From the IMG/VR virus record IMGVR_UViG_3300042090_002752: a DNA stretch of 20,000 nucleotides; one strand, written 5' to 3'. This document shows positions 7,765 through 20,000 of this stretch, in pieces. Under the pieces are notes generated by a model. That model was given only the letters and a program-made list of their open reading frames with translations. It did not search any database and was not told where the DNA came from. The first letter of the stretch is position 1; each line of letters starts with the position of its first letter. Origin of the DNA: an uncultured virus (IMG/VR IMGVR_UViG_3300042090_002752). Taxonomy: Duplodnaviria > Heunggongvirae > Uroviricota > Caudoviricetes. Position numbers and translations under genes: made by a program.

Positions 7765-8666
7765 TTTAATTCCTCCTGAATTTCCAACCTGGATGCGTTT
7801 AGCGGATCGGCGGCAAGTGCCTTCCGCTCGATTTCCGTGCTCGCCGCGGCGATGGCGTCGGTGGCTTTCCGCAGCAGCAGTTCCGCCTCGTCAAATTCGC
7901 CGACGGCTTCACCCAGCCAGCCGACCAGATGGGCGAGGTGTTTCGTGGCTTCGATGAACGTGAGAGTCGATCGGGTTAGTCGGTCGATCCGTTGCGCCCG
8001 GGTTGCCCGGCCGGACACTGGCAGAGCCTGCTCCGCCAAGTCCGTAGCGTCACTTGCTGCAACCGGTGGAGGAGAATCGGTCTGATGTGCTTGCGGCGTG
8101 TTTGGAGCACGCCGGAATCTCGTCGGGACTGAGGTCGATTTCGTGGCCCGCACGGCAGTGCCGATGTTGCTGACTTCGGTAGTGCGACCGTCCAGTCCCG
8201 TGCGTGTGGACGACTGCGGAATTTCCGCAGTCAGCCGCTCCCGCCAACCGCGCACCGTGCCTTCGTCGACACCGACGTGTGCAGCGATCCGGCGATTGCT
8301 CAATTGCACACCGTTCGAATGCAAGAGCGCCGCCTTTACTGCACGCTGCTTATCCTCGTTCGTGCGCCGGAGCCCCGTGGCCTTATTCGCGCCGAAGCTG
8401 TACCACTGGGCGTCTTGCTGCGTCCCCTGGCGCAGATCACAAGCGATGTTCTCCACACCGGATTGCTCCGCGGCTTTCACCCGGTGGAATCCATCAGCGA
8501 GCCAATAATTGGCGCCGTCGTAGAACACGACCACGGGTGGAAAGATCGCCCCGCCAGCCATCGCGGCCATATAATCAACGACCGCTTCAAAGTCGATCGT
8601 GGCGCGCGGTTGGGTACCTCCATCCAGACGGATGTTGCTGATCGGGAGGCTCTCTCCTTGTTTCAC
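7761..8666 (-). CDS. ParB-like N-terminal domain protein with HTH
   Basis: QPR...FPPVVVF...LADGFHRVKA (ParB/Srx GxxR motif), AN..GLRR, HTH LSNRRIAAHVGVDEGTVRGWR, low-complexity linker and helical C-terminus; GTGA coupling. Confidence 0.85.
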   Translation of the reverse strand: MKQGESLPISNIRLDGGTQPRATIDFEAVVDYMAAMAGGAIFPPVVVFYDGANYWLADGFHRVKAAEQSGVENIACDLRQGTQQDAQWYSFGANKATGLRRTNEDKQRAVKAALLHSNGVQLSNRRIAAHVGVDEGTVRGWRERLTAEIPQSSTRTGLDGRTTEVSNIGTAVRATKSTSVPTRFRRAPNTPQAHQTDSPPPVAASDATDLAEQALPVSGRATRAQRIDRLTRSTLTFIEATKHLAHLVGWLGEAVGEFDEAELLLRKATDAIAAASTEIERKALAADPLNASRLEIQEELK

Positions 8667-9205
8667 TGGGCACCTCCGGCAACGAAGTAGTTGGGACCAA
8701 TTCCGGCCGCCAGGAAGGCCTTGCGGATGTGGGCAATGTGCTCGTACACAACCGACCTAGCTGTGCCGAGAGTCTCGCTCGCCTCAGTCGGGGAACCGCA
8801 TCGCAATGCCCGCACCGTCTTCCGCAAATGTGCCGGCAGAGTCCTCACGACTTTGCCCACGTCGAGCCAGAACTCGGCGCAATCGGCCGAGGATGGCGCG
8901 GTGTCCTGGGCTAGGTCGGCAATGGCGTCGCCGTCAATCAGATCGGGACGTCCCAGCTGCAGGCGGCACCGAGCCAAGCGGTAGCGCAAGATCGCTGCGA
9001 TCTCCCGGTCCATCACGCGGCAAATGAAGGTGCGCTTTGAGGCGCGATCGGCGTCAAAGTTGCGCATCTGTGAGCAGACGGCCAGCAAGAGCTGAGATTC
9101 GACGTCTTCCCGGTCATCCGCAGTCAGCCCGCACTGCCCGATGACGGCTTTTGCCCTGAGACGTGCCAGGCTGCGCACAGCTTGGATGGCGGAGTCATTC
9201 ATCAT
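8663..9205 (-). CDS. ECF/sigma-70-like RNA polymerase sigma factor (element-encoded)
   Basis: Region 2-like DREDVESQLLL...FDADRASKRTFICRV and region 4-like LPAHLRK...EASETLGTARSVVYEHIAHIR; 180 aa; ATGA coupling. Confidence 0.8.
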   Translation of the reverse strand: MMNDSAIQAVRSLARLRAKAVIGQCGLTADDREDVESQLLLAVCSQMRNFDADRASKRTFICRVMDREIAAILRYRLARCRLQLGRPDLIDGDAIADLAQDTAPSSADCAEFWLDVGKVVRTLPAHLRKTVRALRCGSPTEASETLGTARSVVYEHIAHIRKAFLAAGIGPNYFVAGGAQ

Positions 9206-9555
9206 GACCGCCCTCCGCGCTTCGGTGCCCCCAGCTCCACCTCCATCGACAGCGGCAGGCCATGGCGGACCTCGAGTATCCGGATTTCACCCACATCCAC
9301 GCTGCGGGTGTACTCGAAGAATTCGGCCACCTGGCTTTTCAGTTCGTACTCGGCAGGACGAAATGGGCGGCCGCGGCTCCCTTCCACGCTGAACTTCACA
9401 TCGCGCACGGCCACCGGCCACGGGTCGAGAACGAGCTGGCCATCTTGGATCTGGAGAAACTCAAAACGGCCAAAGGCCATGTCCCGCATGGCGGCGAGAA
9501 AACGATGTTCAGACGGCGAGAGGTCTCCGGCAAAGCCCGGCTTGGGCGCACTCAT
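9202..9555 (-). CDS. Hypothetical protein (117 aa)
   Basis: Start moved from 9714 to the ATG at 9555 (ATGA overlap with the HTH gene stop, GGAGG RBS); its own stop overlaps the sigma start. Globular-looking sequence (FGRFEFLQIQDG...IRILEVRHGLP). Confidence 0.75.
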   Translation of the reverse strand: MSAPKPGFAGDLSPSEHRFLAAMRDMAFGRFEFLQIQDGQLVLDPWPVAVRDVKFSVEGSRGRPFRPAEYELKSQVAEFFEYTRSVDVGEIRILEVRHGLPLSMEVELGAPKRGGRS

Positions 9556-9803
9556 TGCCCGGCCTCCGGTGTCAATTCTCCGCCGCTCGGCCGTGTCGCC
9601 AGCCAGCCGCGGATGTCTTCCAGGCGATAGCGGACCGCCGCGCCAACCTTGATGTAGCGGGGGCCTTGATTCAGCAGGCGCCAGCGGCGAATCGCCGCCA
9701 CACTGAGCCCGCAAATTTCGGCTACTTCAGCTTCGGCAAGCAGCGGCTCCACCAATTGGCTAGCCGCTGCGATGGATTGTTTGTTGGGTCGAGTTGCAGC
9801 CAC
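9552..9803 (-). CDS. Excisionase/AlpA-type (HTH_17) DNA-binding protein
   Basis: LLAEAEVAEICGLSVAAIRRWR...GPRYIKVGAAVRYRLEDIRGWL; first gene of the replication operon; GTG start without an obvious RBS. Confidence 0.88.
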   Translation of the reverse strand: MAATRPNKQSIAAASQLVEPLLAEAEVAEICGLSVAAIRRWRLLNQGPRYIKVGAAVRYRLEDIRGWLATRPSGGELTPEAGQ

Positions 9804-9834: not shown

Positions 9835-9927
9835 GGTCAAGGTAGGAAATGAGGTAGGAAGGGTAGGAAAATCTCGGCCGGAAAAGCCGCCTTAGGGTAG
9901 GGAAAGGTAGGAAGGGAATTCCTACCT
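9835..9927 (-). promoter_or_regulatory. Putative operator cluster and -35 element of the replication operon
   Basis: On the plus strand GGTAGGAA occurs at 9841, 9853, 9862 and 9906, a variant GGTAGGGAA at 9896, and an inverted TTCCTACC at 9919. Minus-strand TTGACC at 9840-9835 abuts the nearest copy. Confidence 0.65.
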
Positions 9928-10015: not shown

Positions 10016-11383
10016 TCAATGAGCTGGCACCGAGTGTCTCCTGATGGTCGGCCGCTTGATCTCTATTTCATTGGTTTCGCCCTGGTACCTGCGCGTCTTC
10101 GCCAACTCCTCAGAGGCTGTCTGGTTCCTCGGGTCAAGGTCTATCGCCTTCTGGAACATGGCGATCGCTTTCTTATAGTCTTGTTGCTTTCGAAGAGCCA
10201 AGCCGAGGTAGAGATAGGCCTTTGAGTTCTTTGGATCTAGTTCTATCGCCTTGTCGAGTTCAATGATCGCGTCTTCCAGTTTTCCCTTGCCCAAGACTGC
10301 CATTCCCAAGCTAAGTTGAGCCACTGAGTAACTCGGATCTAATTTGAGCGCCTCCCTGAACTTGGCGATGGCATCATCGAACTTCTCCTTCTCGGCCAAC
10401 GCAGCGCCCCAGCCAACATACGATTGCGGGTCCTTCGGATCCAATCTCGTCGCCATCTGGTGTTTTGCGATGGCCTCCTCGAAACGCCCCTCGATGCCGA
10501 GGACATTACCCCAGTTGTTGTATGCTTTCACATTCGATGGATTTAGCTCTATCGCCTTCTGGTAGTTTGCTTTCGCCTCTTTCCAATTCCTCTGATCGTT
10601 GTTTACATTGCCCAAGAGGTTGTACGCCGCAGAACGCTGGACTGGGCCTTGGTCCGGATCCCTTATGATCACCCGGGCGAGTTCGATCGATTGCTCATAC
10701 TGCTGGGTCTGACGTCGATACACCGCAAGGACGTAAGGGTTGGCTTGTCTCAGGGCCTCCTCCGCGGCCCGCTGAATCAATGAGTTGAGGTCTCCCAGCA
10801 GCCCTTCAACAGTGGCAGGCTGGCTAGGATTCCATCCATGCGAAACGTAGATGGTAATCCGGGCAATACGGCTCTCAGGATTAGGGCTGGGGGATGTGTC
10901 CAAGACAATATCGCCCTCGATATGCCTGACCGGTCTCTTGAAAAGAGCCTGAAGCAGCCTGACAGGCTCCGCGGTAAACACGCCACCTACATGGACCTCC
11001 TCGATGGGCATGGAGTCAACGTCGCGCTTCTGCGCCACGCTGTCTTTCTTCATCTTGGTTCGCGTCTGCTCTTCGATGCGGCGGATTGCATCGCCGATCC
11101 GGCTAGCAACCACGTCGCCGTACAGTCCTCGGTCTTGCAAGATCTTCGGAGCGTCGAAGGGATCAACGATTAGGGCATCTCGAGTGACTTCCACGTAGAG
11201 ATACCGCGCCACCGCCAGCATAGCTATGAAGATCAACACTCGAATTATGATCTTGAGCCATTCCCACGCGATCTCCGGGATCGAGCGCATTCGCATTACC
11301 AAGTGCTTGGCGGGTGCGTTAGGTCGGTGGTCAGGGTTGTGGTGAGGATGGTGGTAATGAGGCTGATGAGAATTAAGTTTCAT
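10016..11383 (-). CDS. Membrane-anchored tetratricopeptide-repeat protein
   Basis: His-rich N-terminus, hydrophobic segment (IIIRVLIFIAMLAVARYLY), alpha/beta-looking middle region, then about five to six 34-aa repeats ending in ..KAIELNP / LDP. Start codon uncertain. Confidence 0.88.
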   Translation of the reverse strand: MKLNSHQPHYHHPHHNPDHRPNAPAKHLVMRMRSIPEIAWEWLKIIIRVLIFIAMLAVARYLYVEVTRDALIVDPFDAPKILQDRGLYGDVVASRIGDAIRRIEEQTRTKMKKDSVAQKRDVDSMPIEEVHVGGVFTAEPVRLLQALFKRPVRHIEGDIVLDTSPSPNPESRIARITIYVSHGWNPSQPATVEGLLGDLNSLIQRAAEEALRQANPYVLAVYRRQTQQYEQSIELARVIIRDPDQGPVQRSAAYNLLGNVNNDQRNWKEAKANYQKAIELNPSNVKAYNNWGNVLGIEGRFEEAIAKHQMATRLDPKDPQSYVGWGAALAEKEKFDDAIAKFREALKLDPSYSVAQLSLGMAVLGKGKLEDAIIELDKAIELDPKNSKAYLYLGLALRKQQDYKKAIAMFQKAIDLDPRNQTASEELAKTRRYQGETNEIEIKRPTIRRHSVPAH

Positions 11384-11506
11384 CGTGAATCAGCCGGGAT
11401 TTCCATTTTCGGATTTCCAGAAGGGTTCAGTATACATTCATTTGGTCTGATTGGTGTTGCGTACCAGTTTGAATGAGAGTATAGCGCTGGGAGTGATGGT
11501 GTGGGG

Positions 11507-11666
11507 GACTGGGCTTCGAGGCTTGGCCTTCGCCTGGATATCAGCTTCTTCCCGGCCGAGGAGCACCGGGGGCCAGGCCGAGCGCAAGCGAGTTCAGCGG
11601 CTGAGCCTGGACGCCGGCCGCGGTTCGGCCGTAGGGATGATGCTCCAGGCGAAGGTCGGCTCAGTC
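11507..11666. other. Intergenic multi-branch inverted-repeat structure (candidate ncRNA or mobile-element end)
   Basis: Perfect 12-bp stem CCTTCGCCTGGA (11527-11538) / TCCAGGCGAAGG (11644-11655), extended by G-U pairs and enclosing three hairpins. Confidence 0.5.
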
Positions 11667-11698
11667 GGTCTAGCACGCTGTCCCAGTCATAACGTTAC

Positions 11699-11845
11699 TA
11701 CGCGTGATCCGTCAAATGATGTCCAATAATCATGAGACGGAGACATTGTGTGCTGTGCGTGACCAAGGAGCAACGGGAGGAATTGAACAAGTGGGCGGCA
11801 TCCCGCACGCTGCCCGCGGGTGACGTGTTTCGGGCACGGCTGATC
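11699..11845 (+). pseudogene. IS630-family left-end remnant with truncated transposase
   Basis: The first 38 codons from ATG 11732 (VTKEQREELNKWAASRTLPAGDVFRARLI) match the IS630 N-terminal pattern; similarity then stops abruptly. A TA dinucleotide at 11699 is the possible left end. Confidence 0.7.
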
Positions 11846-11888
11846 CCGGCAAGCTCGGCCATCCATACACGACGACCGAGGGCTGGCT

Positions 11889-12722
11889 TCACCCGCCCGA
11901 TACCTCCGCGGGCATCGCTCCGTTGGCCACCAGCGGGGTCTCTCCGGAAAGCACGCTTTCGATTCGCTGTGACATCACGGACTCTACACCGAGCGTCCCG
12001 CGCCGCCAGCGTTGCATGTCGGGCTTGTAGATCTCAGCAGCTTCGCACACCGCTGCAATTGTGGCGTCGTTCGCGGTGAGAAATGCCTGCAGCCGTGCTT
12101 CGCGCTGCGGCGCAAGTTCATGCGCGCTGCAATCCTGGACGGATACTTCGGCAGCGATTGCGCCTGGATCACCAATTGGAGGGCCGGTGTGCTCCTGCGC
12201 GGGCGCCGCCGACACCTCAATATTTAGATTGGCCGCGTGGCGTTGCCACGCCTCCAGGTCCAGCCGAGCTACTTCGCCGGCCACTTCGGTTCGCACCAAC
12301 TGGTGGAAGTCCGCTACAGCCTGGTCGATCTTCCCTGCCGACAGCGAGTCGTAAGGTTGCAGTTTCCGTTGATAGGTCCGGTCTGCCACGATCCAGGCGC
12401 ATTCCCTCAGGAAATCCTCGAACTCGGCTGCCTGGCGGATCTCGCCCAGCGCGGCCTCGCCATAGGCGGGGATGATCTTGGCGGCGTAGCGCACTCCAGC
12501 CTGCCAGTGGGGCGGGACGATAGCGGCTATGCGAGATGGGTGGCAGTCTCCGAGCCCGTCCATCCAGTTGCGCCAGTTGGCTGTAACCTCTCGCGATCGA
12601 AATTCCACTTCCGCCCTTGCGCGCGCTATCTGCACGGCGGCTGATGACGACAGAGATCGCATGCGCGCCTCGGTTGCGTCTCTAGGTGTCTGGAAGAAGC
12701 TGACGTACCCACCAGTGTCCAT
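11889..12722 (-). CDS. Hypothetical protein with probable C-terminal Cro/XRE-like HTH
   Basis: 277 aa, GAGG RBS; the C-terminal RLQAFLTANDATIAAVCEAAEIYKPDMQRWRRG...SQRIESVL resembles an XRE-type HTH after a low-complexity linker. Confidence 0.65.
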   Translation of the reverse strand: MDTGGYVSFFQTPRDATEARMRSLSSSAAVQIARARAEVEFRSREVTANWRNWMDGLGDCHPSRIAAIVPPHWQAGVRYAAKIIPAYGEAALGEIRQAAEFEDFLRECAWIVADRTYQRKLQPYDSLSAGKIDQAVADFHQLVRTEVAGEVARLDLEAWQRHAANLNIEVSAAPAQEHTGPPIGDPGAIAAEVSVQDCSAHELAPQREARLQAFLTANDATIAAVCEAAEIYKPDMQRWRRGTLGVESVMSQRIESVLSGETPLVANGAMPAEVSGG

Positions 12723-12777
12723 AACCTCAACCTACCCCACTACCGGGCGGCGAACAAGAGACGAACTCGATCTCCAC

Positions 12778-12818: not shown

Positions 12819-13292
12819 CTAAGTAGCTGTGTATTTCTGGGCAAATTGACCCGCCTGATCTATTGATACTAAAGGTATTGCATCATTCTTGGGCTCCGCG
12901 AGTAGGTTGCGCCACATTCGTCTCTGCACCTCCCAATCAACCTGACCGGCCAGCTTTCGCAGCCCGCGCTCAGGGGGTAGGAAGCCAGAAGGAAACAGTA
13001 ACTGTTCCTGGATGTCTGGTGCCAGATTCGAGAGATTCATCACCTGCGTCATCCGGGCCCGGGTGACGTAACCCAGCCTGGCGATGTCGGCATAGTCGCG
13101 GAGTTCCCCGCAATCCACCAGCCCCTGATACTTGACTGCGAGCGCCATCAACCGGGTGACCCTCTGCGTCCGTGGGGATGCTGCTGGCCGTGCCACCTCT
13201 CCCGAGCCCACCTTACCGCCCGACCGCCTGGGCAGATCAAGCGTGATCTCGACTTCCATCGGCGGTACGTTGGGCTTTGAATTGCGCTTCAT
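12819..13292 (-). CDS. Recombinase-associated HTH-like accessory protein (157 aa)
   Basis: RLMALAVKYQGLVDCGELRDYADIARLGYVTRARMTQVMNLSNLAPDIQEQLL is a pattern I recognise downstream of DUF2924-linked serine recombinases. Start moved to the ATG at 13292 (ATGA overlap with the recombinase stop). Confidence 0.78.
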   Translation of the reverse strand: MKRNSKPNVPPMEVEITLDLPRRSGGKVGSGEVARPAASPRTQRVTRLMALAVKYQGLVDCGELRDYADIARLGYVTRARMTQVMNLSNLAPDIQEQLLFPSGFLPPERGLRKLAGQVDWEVQRRMWRNLLAEPKNDAIPLVSIDQAGQFAQKYTAT

Positions 13293-14878
13293 TCGACCGT
13301 CCATCCCGAACACAATTCCCGCATGCCCTGCGATCGGAACGCCACGGTGACCTTGCCCGTGCGGCCGTCGTAGCCGACCCGCTCGACCAGCAGGTTCACC
13401 ATCCGTGTTTGTTGGTGCGTCCGCAGTGAGTTCCACACTGGTTCGAACCGTTCGAGCGCGGACAGAACATCAGCTTCATCAAGCGGATCATCCTCCAATA
13501 CTTCGAGTTCGGCCCGCAGCGTGACGAGACGGTCCTCGATGGCCTGAACCTCTTTGTGCAATTCGACGAGCCGGTCGAATCGCGCCGCCGCACCATCATC
13601 AGTGCCACCCATCGTTGCGGCGCAGGCCATCTCCGCGTTCAGCCGCCGGAGTTGTAACTGGCCTGCCGCTTCGTCGTTCCGCAGTTGCTCGGTTCTGGCC
13701 GCAACTTGAGCCCGCGCATGTTCCACCGTTCTGCGGGCAATCTCGGGATCGCTGCCCAGCCGACGGATGCTTTCGATGACCGCCGCTTCAATCGCGTGCG
13801 CGGCGACCGATTTGGTCTCGCACGTGTTCCAGCCCCGCTGCTGCGCGTTTAGGCAGACGTAGTATCGGTAGCGTTTCGCTCCGCGCATCGTATACGTGGG
13901 GATCATCGGGGTGCCACAAGGAACGCAGAACACGAGCCCGTGGAGCAGTGCGCCGTACTTGTTGCGCGTCCGGTCGCGGCCGGCGGCGCCGTTGCGGCCG
14001 AGGAGCTTCTGAACGTGCTCCCAGGTTTTCGCGTCAATGATGCCGTCCTGCTCGCCCTCGTAGATAGTTCCCTTGTGGTTGATCTTCCCGGCGTAGACCA
14101 CGTTGGTCAGCAAGCCGTACAAACGACTCTTGGTGAAAGGCTTGCCACCATGTGCACGCCCCTCGGCTGACCGCCAGCTCTTGGTGCGCCAGTCGCGTTG
14201 CCGGAGTTTCTCGACCACCGCGATGGCGGCCTGATGCTCGATGTAGAGATCGAAGATGGCCCGCACGCGCGTAGCCTCCTCGGCGTTGACGATCAGGCGG
14301 CCGCCGCGCGGGTCAATATCGTAGCCAAGGATAGGATGTCCTCCGATCCATTTGCCTTTCTTCCTGGCCGCCGATTGTTTGTCGCGGGTGCGCTCGGAGA
14401 TGATCTCGCGCTCAAACTGTGCGAAGGACAAAAGGATGTTCAGCGTCAGCCGCCCCAGCGAGTTGGTCGTATTGAACTGCTGGGTGACGGACACGAAGCT
14501 AGCGCCGCGCTTGTCAAAGACCTCGATGATTCGCGCAAAGTCCATGAGAGACCGGCTAAGTCGGTCGACTTTGTAGACGACCACGCAGTCCACCTTGTCG
14601 GCCTCGATATCCCCAAGTAGTTTCTTCAGCGCCGGCCGCTCCATGTTGGCACCGGTGTAGCCGCCGTCGTCATAACGGTCCGTGAGCAACTGCCAGCCTT
14701 CGTGACGCTGGCTCAGGATGTATGCCTCGCCCGCCTCGCGCTGCGCGTCGAGCGAATTGAACTCCTGCTGGAGGCCTTCGTCAGTGGACTTCCGTGTGTA
14801 GATCGCGCAACGGATCGGCTTTGCGACGGGTGCCGCGACGTTGCCGTTTGCCTTGCCACTACCGTTTCTCGTTGCCAT
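13289..14878 (-). CDS. Large serine recombinase (resolvase + recombinase + Zn-ribbon/coiled-coil), 529 aa
   Basis: Catalytic IYTRKST, DGGYTG...ERPAL, VYKVDRLSRS, FAQFEREIISERT, GGHPILGY, CVPCG...YYVC...C. Start set at ATG 14878 with a GGGGAG RBS. Confidence 0.96.
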   Translation of the reverse strand: MATRNGSGKANGNVAAPVAKPIRCAIYTRKSTDEGLQQEFNSLDAQREAGEAYILSQRHEGWQLLTDRYDDGGYTGANMERPALKKLLGDIEADKVDCVVVYKVDRLSRSLMDFARIIEVFDKRGASFVSVTQQFNTTNSLGRLTLNILLSFAQFEREIISERTRDKQSAARKKGKWIGGHPILGYDIDPRGGRLIVNAEEATRVRAIFDLYIEHQAAIAVVEKLRQRDWRTKSWRSAEGRAHGGKPFTKSRLYGLLTNVVYAGKINHKGTIYEGEQDGIIDAKTWEHVQKLLGRNGAAGRDRTRNKYGALLHGLVFCVPCGTPMIPTYTMRGAKRYRYYVCLNAQQRGWNTCETKSVAAHAIEAAVIESIRRLGSDPEIARRTVEHARAQVAARTEQLRNDEAAGQLQLRRLNAEMACAATMGGTDDGAAARFDRLVELHKEVQAIEDRLVTLRAELEVLEDDPLDEADVLSALERFEPVWNSLRTHQQTRMVNLLVERVGYDGRTGKVTVAFRSQGMRELCSGWTVE

Positions 14879-15368
14879 TGGCGCTCCCCACGGGCATATG
14901 GAAAAAGAGGTAGCCATTCCACTTGGTCCCGGTGATCTCCTTCGCGATTGCGCTCAGCGATCGGTACCGCTGGCCGTTGTAGTTGAACCCGTCCTCGCAG
15001 ACCTTTACGATGATCGTCTGCCCTTTGTACTCGCGCTCGAGCACCGTGCCTGGAAGAGGGCGCCGCGGATCCGCGTCCGGCGTGATCTTGTCCTGCGCGC
15101 ACCGCCCGCCGGCCGCCTCGAAGTCGAATCCCTTCGGCGCTCGAATCCGCAGGTCGGAGTCATTGGCGATCTCGAGGGCACGCCGGCGCGCTCGCTCCGA
15201 CAGACCGCCCTCGGCGTTGGCCTGGAGCCGCCAGGCGATGCGCCGGAACAGAAACTGTTTATGGTTGGACCGCGACTCCTCGCCAAACACTTCGCGGTAC
15301 CGCCCGCGCAACTCCCGTACTGTCATCCGCCGGAGCGCTTCAATCTGCGCACGAACTTGAATCTGCAA
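14859..15368 (-). CDS. DUF2924 domain protein (169 aa)
   Basis: LRRMTVRELRGRYREVFG...RRIAWRLQ...GGLS and PGTVLEREYKG...YRSLSAIAKEITGTKWNGYLFF. Start set at TTG 15368 with an AAGGAG RBS. Confidence 0.9.
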   Translation of the reverse strand: MQIQVRAQIEALRRMTVRELRGRYREVFGEESRSNHKQFLFRRIAWRLQANAEGGLSERARRRALEIANDSDLRIRAPKGFDFEAAGGRCAQDKITPDADPRRPLPGTVLEREYKGQTIIVKVCEDGFNYNGQRYRSLSAIAKEITGTKWNGYLFFHMPVGSANGNEKR

Positions 15369-15537
15369 ACCCTTCTCCTTTCTCGGAGGCGTTAACCTCA
15401 TGTCCATGAGGGCTCGCTTCGGCGGTCGTATCAACTGGCTCTTGGCGGCGGTTTGTGCGGTACCGGAGGTAGCCGTCGGCCAGGATCGTGGCGACGCTGT
15501 CCAGGTCTTCCAGCAACTCTTCATCGCAGATGTTCAC
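15340..15537 (-). CDS. Small hypothetical leader protein of the DUF2924-recombinase operon (65 aa)
   Basis: GGGAG RBS before the GTG; VATILADGYLR resembles small ORFs that precede DUF2924; overlaps the DUF2924 start. Confidence 0.6.
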   Translation of the reverse strand: MNICDEELLEDLDSVATILADGYLRYRTNRRQEPVDTTAEASPHGHEVNASEKGEGFADSSSCAD

Positions 15538-15563
15538 GCGTCATCTCCCTGGCGGGAGCCGCG

Positions 15564-15889
15564 CGGCGAATGGCTGTAGGAGTCGGCCGAAGTGGAACAC
15601 GGAGAGGCAATGCAATACTGTGTCCCGGCATTCTGGCCGGCGCCCACAGCGATGTCCGCCTCGCGGTAGTCCCGCTGTCTGGTGAATTCGGGGCGGCTAA
15701 TTACGTCCCCATTAGAAATATGTGCGAAGCGTTCGAAAAACGTCCGGTTGCAGACCAATCCGAGTGACGGTGTTAACCGCGCGGACGTTCTCCGGCACGC
15801 AGCGGAGAGTTTTCGTGGAAAAGGGCGTCTCGCAGCCGGCTCAGCAGACTCACCCGAATTCTCCACTACGGAGCATGCGACTCTCGCCG
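15564..15889. ncRNA. Candidate large structured RNA / leader upstream of the recombinase operon
   Basis: Four nested long-range helices share a nearly contiguous 3' strand (15853-15889), with several internal hairpins; no convincing CDS in the interval. Confidence 0.5.
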
Positions 15890-15996
15890 ACCTGTAAGTG
15901 CTTGGCTATGTTGAGGAAAGGACGCCGCGTTCAGGCGGGCAGGGAAAGGGCGATGAAGTTAACAGGCGGGGAAAACAAATTCGGGTAGAAATGAAT

Positions 15997-16008
15997 TGGC
16001 TCCCCGAG
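15997..16008 (-). other. tRNA-Asn-like 3' end fragment; putative att site / island boundary
   Basis: Minus strand reads CTCGGGGAGCCA, like the acceptor 3' strand + G discriminator + CCA of tRNA-Asn. It lies between the integration module and an unrelated gene pair. An IHF-like TAAGTGCTTG is at 15895-15904. Confidence 0.4.
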
Positions 16009-16243
16009 AGGAACCCTGGTACGAACAGGCGTTTGGAGAAACCGAAGGACACCGATTTCTCCGTCCTGTTAACCGCTCGGGGAGATTTCGTAAGCGCGAA
16101 CTCCCACTTGATATTCGGCTTTCAAAGAGCCCGATGGACCGAACAATCATACATCAGGCACTCTCTGACAAAAGTGACAGAGCCGGGACAGCGCCGCAGC
16201 CAATCAATCTCGATCTGACGGCTTCGAGGAAATCCGCGCGGGC

Positions 16244-18475
16244 TCACCAACCAACTCGCTGAGGCGGTGGAACAGGCACCGGCAGCACCTGGTGTTGAAT
16301 GTGGCCCAGTACCGCATTATCAACATTGTGCTGGCGCTGTTGCACCGTAACTGCGTAGCGCTGCCAAGTCGCCGGCTCAAGCACCGATCGGCCATACGCG
16401 AGCAGGATCTTGCGTCCATCCGGCTCGCGTCGGTGGACACATTTCTCGTCCCGGACCTTCTCAATCCGCTCGCGGTACAGAATCATCGCATCGCACAGTT
16501 CGTGAATGGCTTCGAGGTCCTGACCAAACTCCTGTTGGATGTCTTTACGGGCGCACTCCGATTTGAGGGGCTTGAGGTAGTTGTCCCACAAACACTCCGT
16601 CAGATCTCTGAACTTCAGAAAATAGACGTCCCACAGGTCACGACACTCCCACCAGCTTTGCGGAGGTACGTTACCTGCCCGGGCCTCGAGCGCGATCACG
16701 ACGCGCTCGATTTGCATGCGGAGGAGACTGCCCATCGACAGGAAGATCTGAAGGAAATTCGCGACACCATCGAGAGCCAGCGATTCTGTGTGGCGCTTCA
16801 GTTTCTTGAGATGCCGTTCGAAGAACTTCAATGTCGCCTCGTGAAGTGTTTTGCAGATCTGCAAATTACGTTCACCAAGATGGCGCATTCCGTCCTGCCC
16901 CTCCCAGACTGGCCGGTTCCTGAGGGCAGGAGGACGAGGTGCGTTCACGATTGGAATGTCGCAGAAGTTCAGAAACGTCAACAATGCGGCGTCGTCTCCC
17001 GCCCGCAGCAGATCGTTCAACACCGAAAAAAATTGCCCTGCGCTCTGAGTCGCTTCTCGGATGTGTCGCTCCTGTCGGACACTTCCCTGTGTCTTGATGT
17101 CCAGGAGGTTCGTCACGAAAACCAAATTGCTCAACTGCTTGTGTCCGTCGGCGGTTTCGATGCTGACCAATGTTGACAACTCCTGTAGCCGCGAAACACT
17201 CCGTTCGGGAACAGTGGCGGTGAAGCGCTCATCAGAAATTCTACCGATCGGTAAGACTTGCCCACGTGAGCCTTGGACGTGAAGCCTGGCTGCGATCGCC
17301 GAACTTCCGATCTCGGATGGTACGCAGGCGCGCATCATCAACCTGTCATCTGCAAGTACGGCATCGATCAGCCGGACCGGCATCGAAGGGTAGTTCTCTT
17401 CCTCATCGCGGGCTGCCGACTGCAGTTGATCTGGTGACCGAAGGTGGTAACCCGACCCGGACGGATCACAGAAACGTCGCGGGTCGAGCGCCTTCGCTGA
17501 AATGTCAGGCACAACGACCACCGTCTCAATGTTGCCAGCCTTCCCGTGCTTGAGTAGCGCAGGACTCGTGAAGTTGGCGCTGCCGTAGACTAGGAACCTG
17601 GTCCGGCCAGACTCGAAGATGATAGCTTTTGCATGAAGAGGCTGCTGGTGGCCATCGTCCTCGTAAGAGCACAGCAAGATCTCTGCACGTCCAGACCGAA
17701 CGCACGGGTGGCTCAGCCACTCTGGCGTCATCGTGGTCACCCCGTTTTGGGTGTACAGCAGGAGCTTGCCGGGCCCAAAATCCCCGATAACACGGTCGAT
17801 TAGGGTGGGCGAATCATCAAAGAATCGAGAGACGACGTGAATGCGGTCGACTGGACGAGGCACCATGGCCGTGATTTGGTCCCACAGCGAGTACTCCAAA
17901 TTATGAAGCAGACGGACGGACCTGGCCGCGGATCCGGGAGTCCCACCCAACCAAGGAGTCGTGCGCCGGAGCTCCTGTACGTTTGAGGCCAGCGATTCTG
18001 CCGGCCAGTTCTCGGCGAGCGCCGAGACAAAGGCGAAGGCGTCCTGGAAGACTGGAAGGAGCCCCTCCTGATCATCCACCTCGAAATCGAACACATCTGC
18101 GAGTTCAGCGTTGGATGTCAGCCCGGGCCGTGTGAAGTTGGCACTCCCGAGGATTAACCGGCCGGACGTCTTCGTGGTGAAGAGGAAGAGTTTGGGGTGA
18201 AAGCGACCCTTCGTGTCGATCGGACTCAGCAGATATCGAAGGTTGACTTGCTTCGGCCGCTGCGACTCCGGGGCGAGCGTGATTCTCTGGTATGTAGTAC
18301 GGTCAGTGCAAACGGAAATGTTGTTGTTGCTGCTCAAAGCACTGAATCGCTCCAAGCAGTAATCTTCGAAGAACAACGGTTCGAACGTGTATGTACAGAG
18401 AATCGCGTTGTGGTACGTGCGCCTCGACAGCGCGTCGTGCAAGTCGAGCCTCGTGTTCTTACTTCCGCGTGCCAT
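16244..18475 (-). CDS. Phospholipase D-superfamily protein with two HxK...GSAN sites (Tdp1-like / nuclease), probable defence component
   Basis: FHPKLFLF...LILGSANFT and LHAKAIIF...LVYGSANFT...GNIET, followed by a beta-rich segment and a helical C-terminal region; 743 aa; overlaps the upstream gene by 17 nt. Confidence 0.9.
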   Translation of the reverse strand: MARGSKNTRLDLHDALSRRTYHNAILCTYTFEPLFFEDYCLERFSALSSNNNISVCTDRTTYQRITLAPESQRPKQVNLRYLLSPIDTKGRFHPKLFLFTTKTSGRLILGSANFTRPGLTSNAELADVFDFEVDDQEGLLPVFQDAFAFVSALAENWPAESLASNVQELRRTTPWLGGTPGSAARSVRLLHNLEYSLWDQITAMVPRPVDRIHVVSRFFDDSPTLIDRVIGDFGPGKLLLYTQNGVTTMTPEWLSHPCVRSGRAEILLCSYEDDGHQQPLHAKAIIFESGRTRFLVYGSANFTSPALLKHGKAGNIETVVVVPDISAKALDPRRFCDPSGSGYHLRSPDQLQSAARDEEENYPSMPVRLIDAVLADDRLMMRACVPSEIGSSAIAARLHVQGSRGQVLPIGRISDERFTATVPERSVSRLQELSTLVSIETADGHKQLSNLVFVTNLLDIKTQGSVRQERHIREATQSAGQFFSVLNDLLRAGDDAALLTFLNFCDIPIVNAPRPPALRNRPVWEGQDGMRHLGERNLQICKTLHEATLKFFERHLKKLKRHTESLALDGVANFLQIFLSMGSLLRMQIERVVIALEARAGNVPPQSWWECRDLWDVYFLKFRDLTECLWDNYLKPLKSECARKDIQQEFGQDLEAIHELCDAMILYRERIEKVRDEKCVHRREPDGRKILLAYGRSVLEPATWQRYAVTVQQRQHNVDNAVLGHIQHQVLPVPVPPPQRVGW

Positions 18476-20000
18476 CGCTTTTCAGAATTCGCGTCAGTTG
18501 TCGGCGGCCGTCTGCAGTGATCGAGATGTTGCCATCGGACCCAAAATCGAGCAGGCCGACATCCCGGAGGATACGAACAGAGTTCCAATGCCGGGAGGAC
18601 CGAAACACCGGTTGATAATCCTGATCCTTGTGTATCTTGCCGTCGAGGCGATGTAACCAGCAGCTTTCCAGTCGGCCCTTCTCGTACATCACGCGGTCGT
18701 GCTGGTCGAGCACAAACGGCTCCATCAGAGACGCGATCGCAGACTTCCAGTCGAGATCAGGCCGGAGCCACCGATCCAACGCTGGCAGCACAATCCCCGT
18801 CCAGAGATTCGAGCCCGCCTTCGCGCCGATATATCGGGCGTATTCGTTGCGAGCGCTTCTCCACTTTGAATACAGGACAGCCAAGATCCCTACGGCTGCG
18901 GCTGCAATCTCTTCTGGCTTGCCATCGCTATCTGCAAGGGACCACTCGCTTTTGTCACTGGTGGCATCGATGTCCTTCCGCGCCTCGCGACAGTGATCTT
19001 CTGAGGGGACGGAGTCCATCTTGAGTGCCAACATGAGATCTCTCGGCGTCGCACCGGCACCAAATAGGCCAACCAACGTCGAGCGGAAGTTCGGCCCCGT
19101 CAGACTTGAAGACACGTCGTCGAGCGCCATTCCCGATGGTTGTAGGTTCAGTGTCTCGAGTGCGCAGTACAGCAGGTTCTCAAGTCCCTGGGTGAGGTAC
19201 TCATGGGCGCAGAACTGCTGCCAAAAGCCGTAGCAACTGGCAAGTGCCGTCGGCGGCTCGTAGGGCACCGGCGGCTGGCCATCACGCCACAGCATGCCGT
19301 AGTAGTAAGGAGGATATACAAGGTAATGATCGACCGAGTCTGATGAGGGATTGAAGCCAGCCTTGCCGTATTCGGCTACCGTATGAAGGATGAGGCCGAG
19401 GGTTTGCCGGCGCAGGAGATCTGTATCTGAGAACTCGTCACGGTCCCATGACAAGAAGAGATTCCGGAGCAGCTCCCGTTCCTCGGTAGCGCGTGTCTCA
19501 TCTAACGAATCAAGAGAAAACCGTGCTGCGGACTTCTTCAGCACATCAAACGGGAGTACTTTCTCACGGAAGTGATCCTGCTTGCAGTACGGTGTCTGGG
19601 CGACGCTGTAGTCGAATGCTCTGGCGAGCGCCTCGCCTCTCCCTGGGGCCACCCTTTCGATTCCGTCTTCGGTGCGGTGGGTGAGGCCGAGTGCATAGAG
19701 CGAACCGCCATAGTACTGTCCGTAGCCGCCCATCACGTTTGAAGGCAGGACAGCGAAATTCGTATCAACTTCCTTGCTCTCAGAGTACTTGCCCAGGCGC
19801 GGCCGAACCGCGTCAGCCCCAACAACCGATGCAGAATCAGAATCGTGTTGCAGCGTCGCTAACGCAATAAACGCCTCGCGCCTTCGGAAAGCCGATGTGA
19901 ATTCGGCGTAACGCTTGGGCGCCTCAGATGCCTCAACATGCCAGAGCGCCCACGGGTAGAACGAGTAGTAGCGCGCCCGACTGGTCGTCGTGATGATGCC
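18459..20000 (-). CDS. Conserved hypothetical PLD-partner protein (DUF6361-like), 5' partial, >=513 aa
   Basis: The frame stays open beyond the track's 19736 start to the window edge (GIITTTSRARYYSFYPWALW...FRRREAFIAL...VVG...GGYGQYYGGSLYALGL) and ends R...SVRILRDVGLL...ITADGRRQL. Family assignment is from memory of these motifs. Confidence 0.8.
   Translation of the reverse strand, partial: GIITTTSRARYYSFYPWALWHVEASEAPKRYAEFTSAFRRREAFIALATLQHDSDSASVVGADAVRPRLGKYSESKEVDTNFAVLPSNVMGGYGQYYGGSLYALGLTHRTEDGIERVAPGRGEALARAFDYSVAQTPYCKQDHFREKVLPFDVLKKSAARFSLDSLDETRATEERELLRNLFLSWDRDEFSDTDLLRRQTLGLILHTVAEYGKAGFNPSSDSVDHYLVYPPYYYGMLWRDGQPPVPYEPPTALASCYGFWQQFCAHEYLTQGLENLLYCALETLNLQPSGMALDDVSSSLTGPNFRSTLVGLFGAGATPRDLMLALKMDSVPSEDHCREARKDIDATSDKSEWSLADSDGKPEEIAAAAVGILAVLYSKWRSARNEYARYIGAKAGSNLWTGIVLPALDRWLRPDLDWKSAIASLMEPFVLDQHDRVMYEKGRLESCWLHRLDGKIHKDQDYQPVFRSSRHWNSVRILRDVGLLDFGSDGNISITADGRRQLTRILKSDGTRK

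What the first reader, a model, noticed from the sequence alone, without database searches (positions are those of the whole stretch)
15564..15889. ~330-nt nested structure directly upstream of the DUF2924 / serine recombinase operon
Seen: one nearly contiguous 3' strand pairs in nested order with four separate 5' segments. These are CGGCGA 15564-69 / TCGCCG 15884-89, GAGTCG 15580-85 / CGACTC 15878-83, CCGAAGTGGA 15587-96 / TCCACTACGG 15862-71 (one mismatch) and GAATTCGGG 15684-92 / CCCGAATTC 15853-61. The loops hold further stems: ACACGG/CTGTGT (15597-15623), CCGGC/GCCGG (15625-40), ACAGCG/CGCTGT (15646-78), AACGTCCG/CGGACGTT (15739-89) enclosing CGGT-GTTA-ACCG, and CTCCG/CGGAG (15790-15807). 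The base of the structure is about 15 nt from the RBS of the first operon gene. Inference: a large structured RNA (leader, antisense or trans-acting) or ssDNA fold belonging to the small ORF-DUF2924-recombinase-HTH module. I do not recognise it as a known family. An RNA partner for this recombinase module would be new, but that link is speculative.
Basis: partly seen in the sequence, partly recalled or inferred. Interest (0 to 1): 0.8.

Follow-up and report, generated by a model that had tools for sequence, protein, structure and literature searches.

The report
Two-state leader RNA before prophage integrase
The large 330-base fold that was flagged is not conserved, but inside it lies a real, uncatalogued 50-base RNA hairpin that sits at the start of the integrase and replication messages of a family of soil-bacterial prophages and probably acts as an on/off switch for those genes.

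Summary
Its four long-range stems break in 16 close relatives without compensation (75.2% paired vs 75.3% shuffled). The span covers two things on the minus strand. (1) 15750-16003 is the unstructured left attachment arm (z +0.85) of an Acidobacterial tRNA-Asn-integrating element, with position-fixed GTTAAC and GGAGA/TCTCC DNA boxes. (2) 15710-15538 is a leader behind a conserved promoter-like site (z -3.5). Its 50-nt core occurs in 162 of 167 DUF2924 loci, with two-sided changes and G-U wobbles (56 G-U vs 1 A-C), and matches no Rfam family. Scans not anchored on DUF2924 found it only in this element family, including second copies before a sigma-like gene. The core's 3' strand has a mutually exclusive downstream partner: it buries the start site in short leaders (39 of 40 beat shuffles) and forms terminator-like hairpins in some long ones. 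I read it as a two-state switch, core formed = ON; the trigger is unproven. In the window's own subfamily the output is unclear. The scan earlier noted related tRNA-Asn elements on other DNA, but no look-alike of this RNA.

The parts
16005..16110 (-). Right-end (attR-side) arm of a neighbouring element of the same kind; carries GTTAAC 16073-68, GGAGAA 16062-57, TCTCC 16039-35
   Evidence: The same arm is followed by GGGAGCC and unrelated sequence at 6 of the 9 places displayed from 5 genomes, and by an element's left arm at 3; also matches L085/L086, L102, L150, L157, L017, L125
15997..16004 (-). Attachment core GGGAGCCA (equivalent of the tRNA-Asn 3' end); here an attP-like or tandem junction
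   Evidence: Homology with close relatives starts at 16003, right after tRNA-Asn. Of 117 loci with enough upstream DNA, 42 have the exact tRNA end, 7 this attP-like arm, 33 other GAGCCA junctions and 35 none
15750..15996 (-). Left attachment arm: unstructured DNA with boxes GTTAAC 15963-58, GGAGAA 15864-59, TCTCC 15808-04, GGAGAA 15793-88, GTTAAC 15777-72.
   Evidence: Fold z +0.85, 160 of 200 shuffles as good. In 78 loci the boxes sit at fixed distances from the core. RNAalifold covariation term only -0.38. Protein binding is inferred
15717..15746 (-). Promoter-like site: -35 CGGACG (15746-41), 18-nt spacer, -10 CATATT (15722-17; relatives TATGTT, TATATA, TATATT)
   Evidence: -10-like box in 135 of 142 loci; the unselected hexamer 18 nt upstream is TTTACA 32, CGGACA 24, CGGACG 22, GAGACA 12, TTTCCA 11 of 129 distinct leaders. 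The consensus scan finds no sigma-70 promoter in this window
15690..15710 (-). P1, a 5' hairpin, variable in sequence and dispensable
   Evidence: z below -2 in 106 of 118 leaders long enough to test (mononucleotide shuffles); absent in 11 of 129; 5 of 8 pairs with two-sided changes in A6, 3 of 7 in A7
15640..15690 (-). Conserved core: ACAGCG (15678-73) with CGCUGU (15651-46), internal loop, CCGC (15666-63)/GCGG (15659-56), variable 3-nt loop. The 3' strand is the switch strand
   Evidence: single hit of model R1 in the window, 66 bits
15617..15650 (-).
   Evidence: Folds in all 10 subfamily members shown, -17.7 to -27.6 kcal/mol; U-tract in 2 of 17
15552..15587 (-). Far mirror segment that can pair with the whole core (MFE state of the window's leader)
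   Evidence: Leader z -3.51, 0 of 200 shuffles; 26 selected pairs 96.4% kept in 17 sequences, one-sided G-U changes only, none two-sided
15340..15550 (-). SD AGGGAG (15550-45) and small ORF (GTG 15537, 65 aa), overlapping the DUF2924 start
   Evidence: Frame kept in relatives; stop overlaps or abuts the DUF2924 start; no Pfam or PHROG family; Atlas hits 0.85-0.86, hypothetical clusters only
15406..15434 (-). Second promoter-like motif inside the small ORF, TTGATA-17-CCTCAT
   Evidence: Pattern found in 104 of 140 distinct loci, spacer 17 in 95; function inferred
14859..15371 (-). DUF2924 protein; model has an N-terminal HeH/SAP/Rho-N-like domain and a C-terminal RAMA-like domain
   Evidence: PF11149 E 6e-45, RAMA E 0.004 below cut-off; pLDDT 72; Z 7.1 T4 EndoVII C-terminus, 5.8 Rho N-terminus, 6.3 CcrM C-terminus, 6.1 MPND (middling Z values)
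13289..14878 (-). Large serine recombinase
   Evidence: Resolvase, Recombinase, Zn ribbon; phrog_95 integrase
12819..13292 (-). Small recombinase-associated gene
   Evidence: phrog_14161 'recombinase'; AcaML1 has a 'recombinase small subunit' in this position

Best explanation
The span is the left end of an Acidobacterial tRNA-Asn-integrating prophage-like element: a DNA attachment arm, a promoter, then a ~170-nt mRNA leader. The leader's ~50-nt core hairpin is the conserved sensing half of a two-state switch. Its 3' strand pairs either with the 5' ACRRCG strand (core formed) or with a lineage-specific downstream partner. In short leaders the second state buries the SD and start codon of the small ORF, which overlaps or abuts DUF2924. 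In some long leaders it is a terminator-like hairpin with a U-tract. The second state is the more stable, so the default is OFF, and something that stabilises the core turns on the integration operon and, where a second copy exists, the sigma-like/replication operon. Shown by comparison: the core structure, its strand, its placement and the alternative pairings. Inferred: transcription from the promoter, switching, and the trigger. My first choice for the trigger is an element-encoded RNA-binding protein (about 0.35 on its own), with DUF2924 or the small ORF product as candidates.
For: Core in 162 of 167 DUF2924 loci with 330+ nt upstream: 159 pattern hits, minus false hit L037, plus 4 recovered by R1 (duplicates included). 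96 distinct cores: 99.3% paired, pair 3 A-U 69/G-C 23, pair 4 G-U 46/G-C 38/A-U 8; 56 G-U-type cells vs 1 A-C, which fixes the minus strand. 39 hand-picked diverse cores: 6 of 14 pairs change on both sides, 1 of 500 shuffles. Scans not anchored on DUF2924: 22 viral hits of 31+ bits = 17 before DUF2924, 2 before a sigma-like gene, 1 before another serine recombinase, 2 broken duplicates; 18 matches in 12 of 121 genomes = 14 DUF2924, 1 sigma-like, 3 without DUF2924 within 1.5 kb. Two copies in one record, G108. Forcing the core opens the start region in 45 of 46, 48 of 53 and 9 of 9 short leaders; the other state is favoured by a median 4-11 kcal/mol. The native switch strand closes the start region more than its shuffles in 39 of 40. 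16-bp alternative helices in L282 and L225 differ from each other by matched changes; 7 of 24 lineage clusters p 0.05 or less, Fisher 1.5e-5. Hairpin plus U-tract in L113, L092, L361, L376, L240.
Against: In the window's own subfamily the start-site logic fails: the core opens it in 2 of 16 and closes it in 10, the shuffle control passes in 2 of 8, and the U-tract is present in 2 of 17. Alternative helices show no two-sided change within any subfamily. The A-U to G-C change at pair 3 maps to only 2 clades among 137 proteins, so 1-2 events. The pattern that collected the cores fixed the CCGY/RCGG stem and the outer AC/GT, and the set was chosen from structure-based hits. A first duplex test was weak: 18 of 41, 5 of 50, 5 of 30. 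In 17 further lineages the core opened the start in 10 and closed it in 4, with some starts mis-called. The window's -10 is degenerate and the consensus scan finds no promoter. A second promoter-like motif inside the small ORF could bypass the leader. No stranded RNA data and no evidence of any ligand.
Confidence: 0.55

Rival explanations
1. Ligand-free kinetic switch. The core forms first during transcription and gives ribosomes or polymerase a brief window before the leader refolds into the stable OFF state, so integrase expression stays low.
For: In the window the core is the MFE at 75-90 nt of transcript and is replaced from 105 nt on; the OFF state is more stable.
Against: A timer needs no fixed sequence, yet CCGC/GCGG and the outer GAC/GU are nearly invariant in diverse lineages, while P1 changes freely.
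Confidence: 0.18
2. Small-molecule riboswitch: the core is an aptamer for a host signal that licenses prophage excision and replication.
For: One conserved core with interchangeable translational and terminator-like platforms, and copies before two operons.
Against: The apical loop takes 20 sequences and the 5' internal loop 23 among 96 cores; conserved letters lie mostly in helices. All strong hits lie in one element family, none before metabolic genes.
Confidence: 0.12
3. Trans-acting RNA control of the IsrK or P4 CI type: a short form of the leader, or another element RNA, pairs with the long transcript and flips it.
For: The middle strand is complementary to both an upstream and a downstream segment, ahead of a small ORF coupled to the next gene, as described for isrK-orf45-anrP (PMC4825925 sections 12 and 21). 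Terminator-type leaders would yield a short RNA.
Against: The complementary strand is a helix arm rather than an exposed loop, and the apical loop is unconstrained. No Rfam C4 or related match. No separate antisense gene was searched for across whole elements.
Confidence: 0.1
4. The core is a double-stranded DNA operator (CCGC-N3-GCGG inside a wider inverted repeat), and the alternative pairings are by-products of GC-rich sequence.
For: Stems nearly invariant; the element clearly uses DNA boxes nearby; few independent two-sided changes.
Against: 56 G-U vs 1 A-C; unequal spacers on the two sides; always in sense orientation; copies before the sigma-like gene follow another gene's stop, with no promoter of this type seen in the ~70 nt displayed; shuffle control passes in 39 of 40.
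Confidence: 0.04
5. One reading: one 330-nt nested RNA or ssDNA structure that partners the recombinase.
For: The stems exist; nested chain reached by 3 of 150 shuffles; DNA fold of the minus strand z -2.35.
Against: Long-range stems 49-72% paired in close relatives with no covariation; the arm half has z +0.85; a promoter-like site lies in the middle; some relatives keep the promoter and core without the arm (e.g. L004, L005, L011, L013, L016).
Confidence: 0.03

Closest known systems
Gifsy-1 isrK-orf45-anrP leader (PMC4825925; abstract and sections 12 and 21 read) and P4 seqA/CI/seqC as described there
   Same: Prophage leader with two mutually exclusive structures, a stable OFF default, a small upstream ORF coupled to the next gene, and a strand complementary to upstream and downstream segments.
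   Different: No sequence or Rfam match; no trans-acting short RNA shown; controls an integrase operon and a sigma-like gene; one core is reused with both start-burying and terminator-like platforms.
Riboswitches and protein-sensing attenuators (general knowledge)
   Same: Conserved 5' core overlapping a variable expression platform; transcriptional and translational versions.
   Different: No ligand known; conserved letters are mostly helical; confined to one family of mobile elements in what was searched.
Tn916 canT (PMC11658703, passages read); HK022 put (recalled)
   Same: Cis RNA in a mobile element, upstream of recombination or replication genes; put also occurs in two copies (recalled).
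   Different: canT needs hundreds of nt and acts processively on distant terminators; this core is ~50 nt and competes directly with an adjacent helix. Processivity not tested.
DUF2924-serine recombinase modules of phage WO and AcaML1 (PMC10299305 one passage, PMC9203015 passages)
   Same: Same gene order: small ORF, DUF2924, large recombinase, small subunit (AcaML1).
   Different: R1 finds no core in 6 of 6 proteobacterial DUF2924 loci tested, AcaML1 included; WO loci were not scanned.

Membership tests
Any Rfam 15 family (including C4, c4-a1b1-type, Acido-1, Acido-Lenti-1) | Covariance model match over the motif | tested here: not met
   No match at gathering threshold in the window; only chance hits at E up to 10; none over the motif in 17 related loci at E up to 5
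IsrK / P4 CI-type prophage leader | Two exclusive leader structures, one burying the start of a small upstream ORF | tested here: inconclusive
   Met computationally in short leaders, not in the window's subfamily
IsrK / P4 CI-type prophage leader | Small ORF whose stop overlaps or abuts the next gene | tested here: met
   coupling itself not tested
IsrK / P4 CI-type prophage leader | Short RNA acting in trans | not testable with these tools
   Only unstranded low-depth contigs were available
Riboswitch | Conserved structured core in 5' leaders with covariation | tested here: met
   few independent events
Riboswitch | Overlapping expression platform | tested here: met
   Start-burying and terminator-like forms predicted; no two-sided change within subfamilies
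Riboswitch | Direct, selective small-molecule binding | not testable with these tools
   Needs in-line probing
canT / put processive RNA antiterminator | Read-through of distant, heterologous terminators in cis | not testable with these tools
   Needs reporter assays
Attachment junction of a tRNA-integrating serine-recombinase element | Homology breakpoint at the tRNA 3' end and the matching opposite-end arm elsewhere | tested here: met
   exact crossover bases inferred from box symmetry only

The most novel reading that the evidence does not exclude
The core is an orphan sensor module, binding a host signal or an element protein such as DUF2924, that a family of prophages has wired to both translational and transcriptional platforms to co-ordinate its integrase operon and its sigma-like replication operon. 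It sits beside a serine-recombinase attachment site with long arms and fixed accessory boxes reaching 225 bp from the crossover.
Probability: 0.3. Interest if true: 0.82.

Novelty: new variant of a known kind. Interest (0 to 1): 0.58.

Why it matters
It gives a compact, testable RNA switch for how DUF2924-serine recombinase prophages of soil Acidobacteriota time excision and replication, and it is an uncatalogued RNA family with natural translational and terminator-like versions. The same region shows that these serine recombinases sit beside long arms with regularly spaced boxes, unlike the sub-50-bp substrates of Bxb1 integrase (PMC1470463, start of abstract seen in listing). That gives the uncharacterised DUF2924 two concrete candidate targets: the arm boxes and the RNA core.

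Tried and rejected
No genome is held for the window, so the far end of this element and any second copy beyond the window could not be sought; inside the window R1 finds one copy only. blastn against plasmids: no match. ARAGORN: no tRNA in the window; its tRNA-Glu calls over the promoter region in L029 and L031 (2 of 60 loci) were taken as false. Protein-coding explanations for 15534-15866 were rejected: no Pfam family, and 1-, 2- and 5-nt indels among close relatives. It also has similar low-depth contigs at 12500-12770 and 15980-16500, contigs carry no strand or ends, and DNA may be present, so I give it no weight. X2 holds only relatives. Phylum-wide scan: 8 of 101 genomes, strong matches only in 2. 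Foldseek on the DUF2924 model: nothing at E 0.001 or better. No complex prediction was obtained, so nothing is said on protein-protein binding. Literature searches listed no description of this RNA; DUF2924 occurs once each in 3 Wolbachia papers. Term searches of the main texts of PMC2864571 and PMC5737381 (passages only) showed no matching motif. The supplement of PMC5737381 could not be read, and that of PMC2864571 was not opened, so a motif listed only there and absent from Rfam is not excluded.

Full report
1. Observation. All nine stems are literally present. The 336-nt stretch folds only modestly better than shuffles: z -1.22 on +, -2.21 on -. Numbers of perfect stems are ordinary (16, 31 and 31 of 150 shuffles reach them); the best nested chain is reached by 3 of 150. 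The structure as drawn is 14 kcal/mol above the + strand MFE, and two of its four long-range stems have pairing probability 0.04 or less on either strand. The operon (small ORF, DUF2924, large serine recombinase, small subunit) reads on the minus strand. The rest of the window holds primase, RecD-like, AAA, PD-(D/E)XK, sigma-like and excisionase-like genes.

2. Relatives. DUF2924 scans gave 184 loci; those with record titles are mostly Bryobacterales and other Acidobacteriota. Sixteen loci with DUF2924 80-95% identical align over the span (A4). Left out were L026 (identical), L030 (upstream replaced), and the duplicates L107 and L113. In A4 the four long-range stems keep 53, 72, 49 and 64% Watson-Crick pairs. 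The whole drawn structure scores 75.2% paired against 75.3% for shuffles, with no excess of two-sided changes. The 330-nt fold is therefore not a conserved feature.

3. The upstream half is an attachment arm. Homology starts at 16003, directly after the 3' end of tRNA-Asn in many relatives. Of 117 loci with enough DNA, 42 show the exact tRNA end, 7 the window's type of arm, 33 another GAGCCA junction and 35 none. The window's upstream arm recurs in other genomes: of 9 places displayed, it is followed by the core and unrelated sequence at 6 and by another element's left arm at 3. So 16003 is an attP-like or tandem junction. The arm 15750-16003 does not fold better than chance (z +0.85). In 78 loci it carries boxes at fixed distances from the core: GTTRAC-type at -40 to -36 (60 matches; in tRNA-Asn this is the anticodon loop), at +35 to +44 (76), and 21-35 nt before the -35 box (67); GGAGA at +135 (45), TCTCC at +190 (54), GGAGA at +205 (37). 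All 4 GTTAAC of the 20-kb window lie in 15391-16073. I infer protein-binding DNA sites; the symmetry about the core suggests a crossover at the CC of the tRNA end (inference).

4. The downstream half is a leader. A -10-like box occurs in 135 of 142 loci, and the unselected hexamer 18 nt upstream is -35-like. In the window these are 15722-17 and 15746-41; the -10 is degenerate and the consensus scan does not call it. The leader 15710-15538 has z -3.51. A first hairpin, P1, varies in sequence yet folds in 106 of 118 leaders and is missing in 11 of 129, with several two-sided changes. The core follows. It is present in 162 of 167 loci with enough upstream DNA (absent from L021, L022, L030, L036, L037). 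Among 96 distinct cores 99.3% of cells pair, with 56 G-U-type cells against 1 A-C, so the structure belongs to the transcribed strand. Caveats: the collecting pattern fixed one stem and two outer pairs, and the main A-U to G-C change maps to 2 clades only. In 39 diverse cores picked from pattern and model hits, 6 of 14 pairs change on both sides. No Rfam family matches.

5. Where the core occurs. A strict viral scan gave 20 loci: 16 before DUF2924, 3 before a sigma-like gene, 1 before another serine recombinase. A looser scan stopped at 120 stretches, of which 80 were fetched; the 22 scoring 31 bits or more split 17 / 2 / 1 / 2 broken duplicates, and 11 weaker loci were not followed except L234, which looked unrelated. 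A model scan of 121 genomes of the class gave 18 matches in 12 genomes: 14 before DUF2924, 1 before the sigma-like gene, 3 with no DUF2924 within 1.5 kb. Record G108 carries both kinds of copy. Two complete proviruses with the sigma-type copy also encode DUF2924, at the record's edge. Six proteobacterial DUF2924 loci lack the core.

6. Two states. The core's 3' strand has a second partner that differs by lineage. One group uses an 11-bp helix beside the SD (99% paired); another a 12-bp helix over the start codon (94.8%). L282 and L225 have 16-bp helices that differ from each other by matched changes. L113, L092, L361, L376 and L240 form hairpins followed by U-tracts; other passes of that filter were marginal (12 of 158 sequences passed in all). 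Forcing the core opens the start region in 102 of 108 short leaders, and the other state is favoured by a median 4-11 kcal/mol (14 loci skipped). The native strand closes the start more than its shuffles in 39 of 40 tested (a third of the two large groups and all 9 of the third). Against: no two-sided change in the alternative helices within groups, a weak first duplex test, and 10 for versus 4 against in 17 further lineages. The window's subfamily has both a near hairpin and a far mirror of the core, but no clear effect on the start site (2 versus 10 of 16; 2 of 8) and mostly no U-tract. Its output may be altered or decayed.

7. Mechanism. Most likely the leader is OFF by default, and stabilising the core permits translation of the small ORF, whose stop overlaps or abuts DUF2924, or read-through in terminator versions. 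Near-invariant helices with free loops fit protein recognition better than a small-molecule pocket or loop-loop pairing (inference). DUF2924 is a candidate: its model has HeH/SAP/Rho-N-like and RAMA-like domains at middling Z. It could equally bind the arm boxes. A second promoter-like motif inside the small ORF (104 of 140) may limit the leader's reach. Rivals are a ligand-free kinetic switch, a riboswitch, a trans RNA and a DNA operator.

8. Known systems. It works most like the Gifsy-1 isrK-orf45-anrP leader and the P4 seqA/CI/seqC arrangement (PMC4825925, abstract and sections 12 and 21), but shares no family match, and no trans RNA is shown. canT (PMC11658703, passages) is longer and processive. 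Ten literature searches listed no description of this RNA; an unreadable supplement leaves a gap. Earlier notes of this scan describe related tRNA-Asn elements and other recombinase leaders; look-ups with this leader's sequence and with key words returned nothing.

9. Verdict. The flagged 330-nt structure is a chance joining of two real parts. The leader core is a real, uncatalogued RNA motif with good but purely comparative evidence for switching. New variant of a known kind; interest 0.58.

Noticed in passing
window 15750-16110 and 78 related loci: Attachment arms of this serine-recombinase element carry GTTRAC and GGAGA/TCTCC boxes at fixed distances out to about +225. Degenerate, non-tRNA targets keep GTTAAC at about -37 (20 of 31 'other' junctions), suggesting accessory-protein recognition far from the crossover.
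   Followed up: partly
window 15434-15406 (minus): Conserved TTGAY-17-CCTCAT motif inside the small ORF; its second box resembles heat-shock-type -10 boxes (recalled) and could be read by the element's own sigma-like protein (8663-9205).
   Followed up: partly
window 9860-9920: Short repeats (AGGGTAGG-type) upstream of the excisionase-like gene 9552-9803; possible operator or origin boxes.
   Followed up: no
window 16244-19736 (minus): PLD-domain protein with a PADLOC ZacB hit (E 2.7e-24) and an upstream unknown gene; probable defence cargo at the right end of the neighbouring element.
   Followed up: no
L185:1-122: A related element with the same core follows a tmRNA 3' end instead of tRNA-Asn.
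   Followed up: no
G104:C3 1787280-1802088 (L347, L353): A ~14.7-kb unit is flanked by two identical right-end arms of at least 110 nt.
   Followed up: no
L387, L388 (G109, G110): The C-terminal half of DUF2924 also occurs inside long ORFs (689 and 1062 aa open frames) in the same proviruses.
   Followed up: no
L201 leader: Alternative helix of about 25 bp directly behind the core, the longest seen.
   Followed up: partly
window 10016-12722: Lower-GC TPR membrane protein and an unknown ORF inserted between the recombinase module and the replication genes.
   Followed up: no
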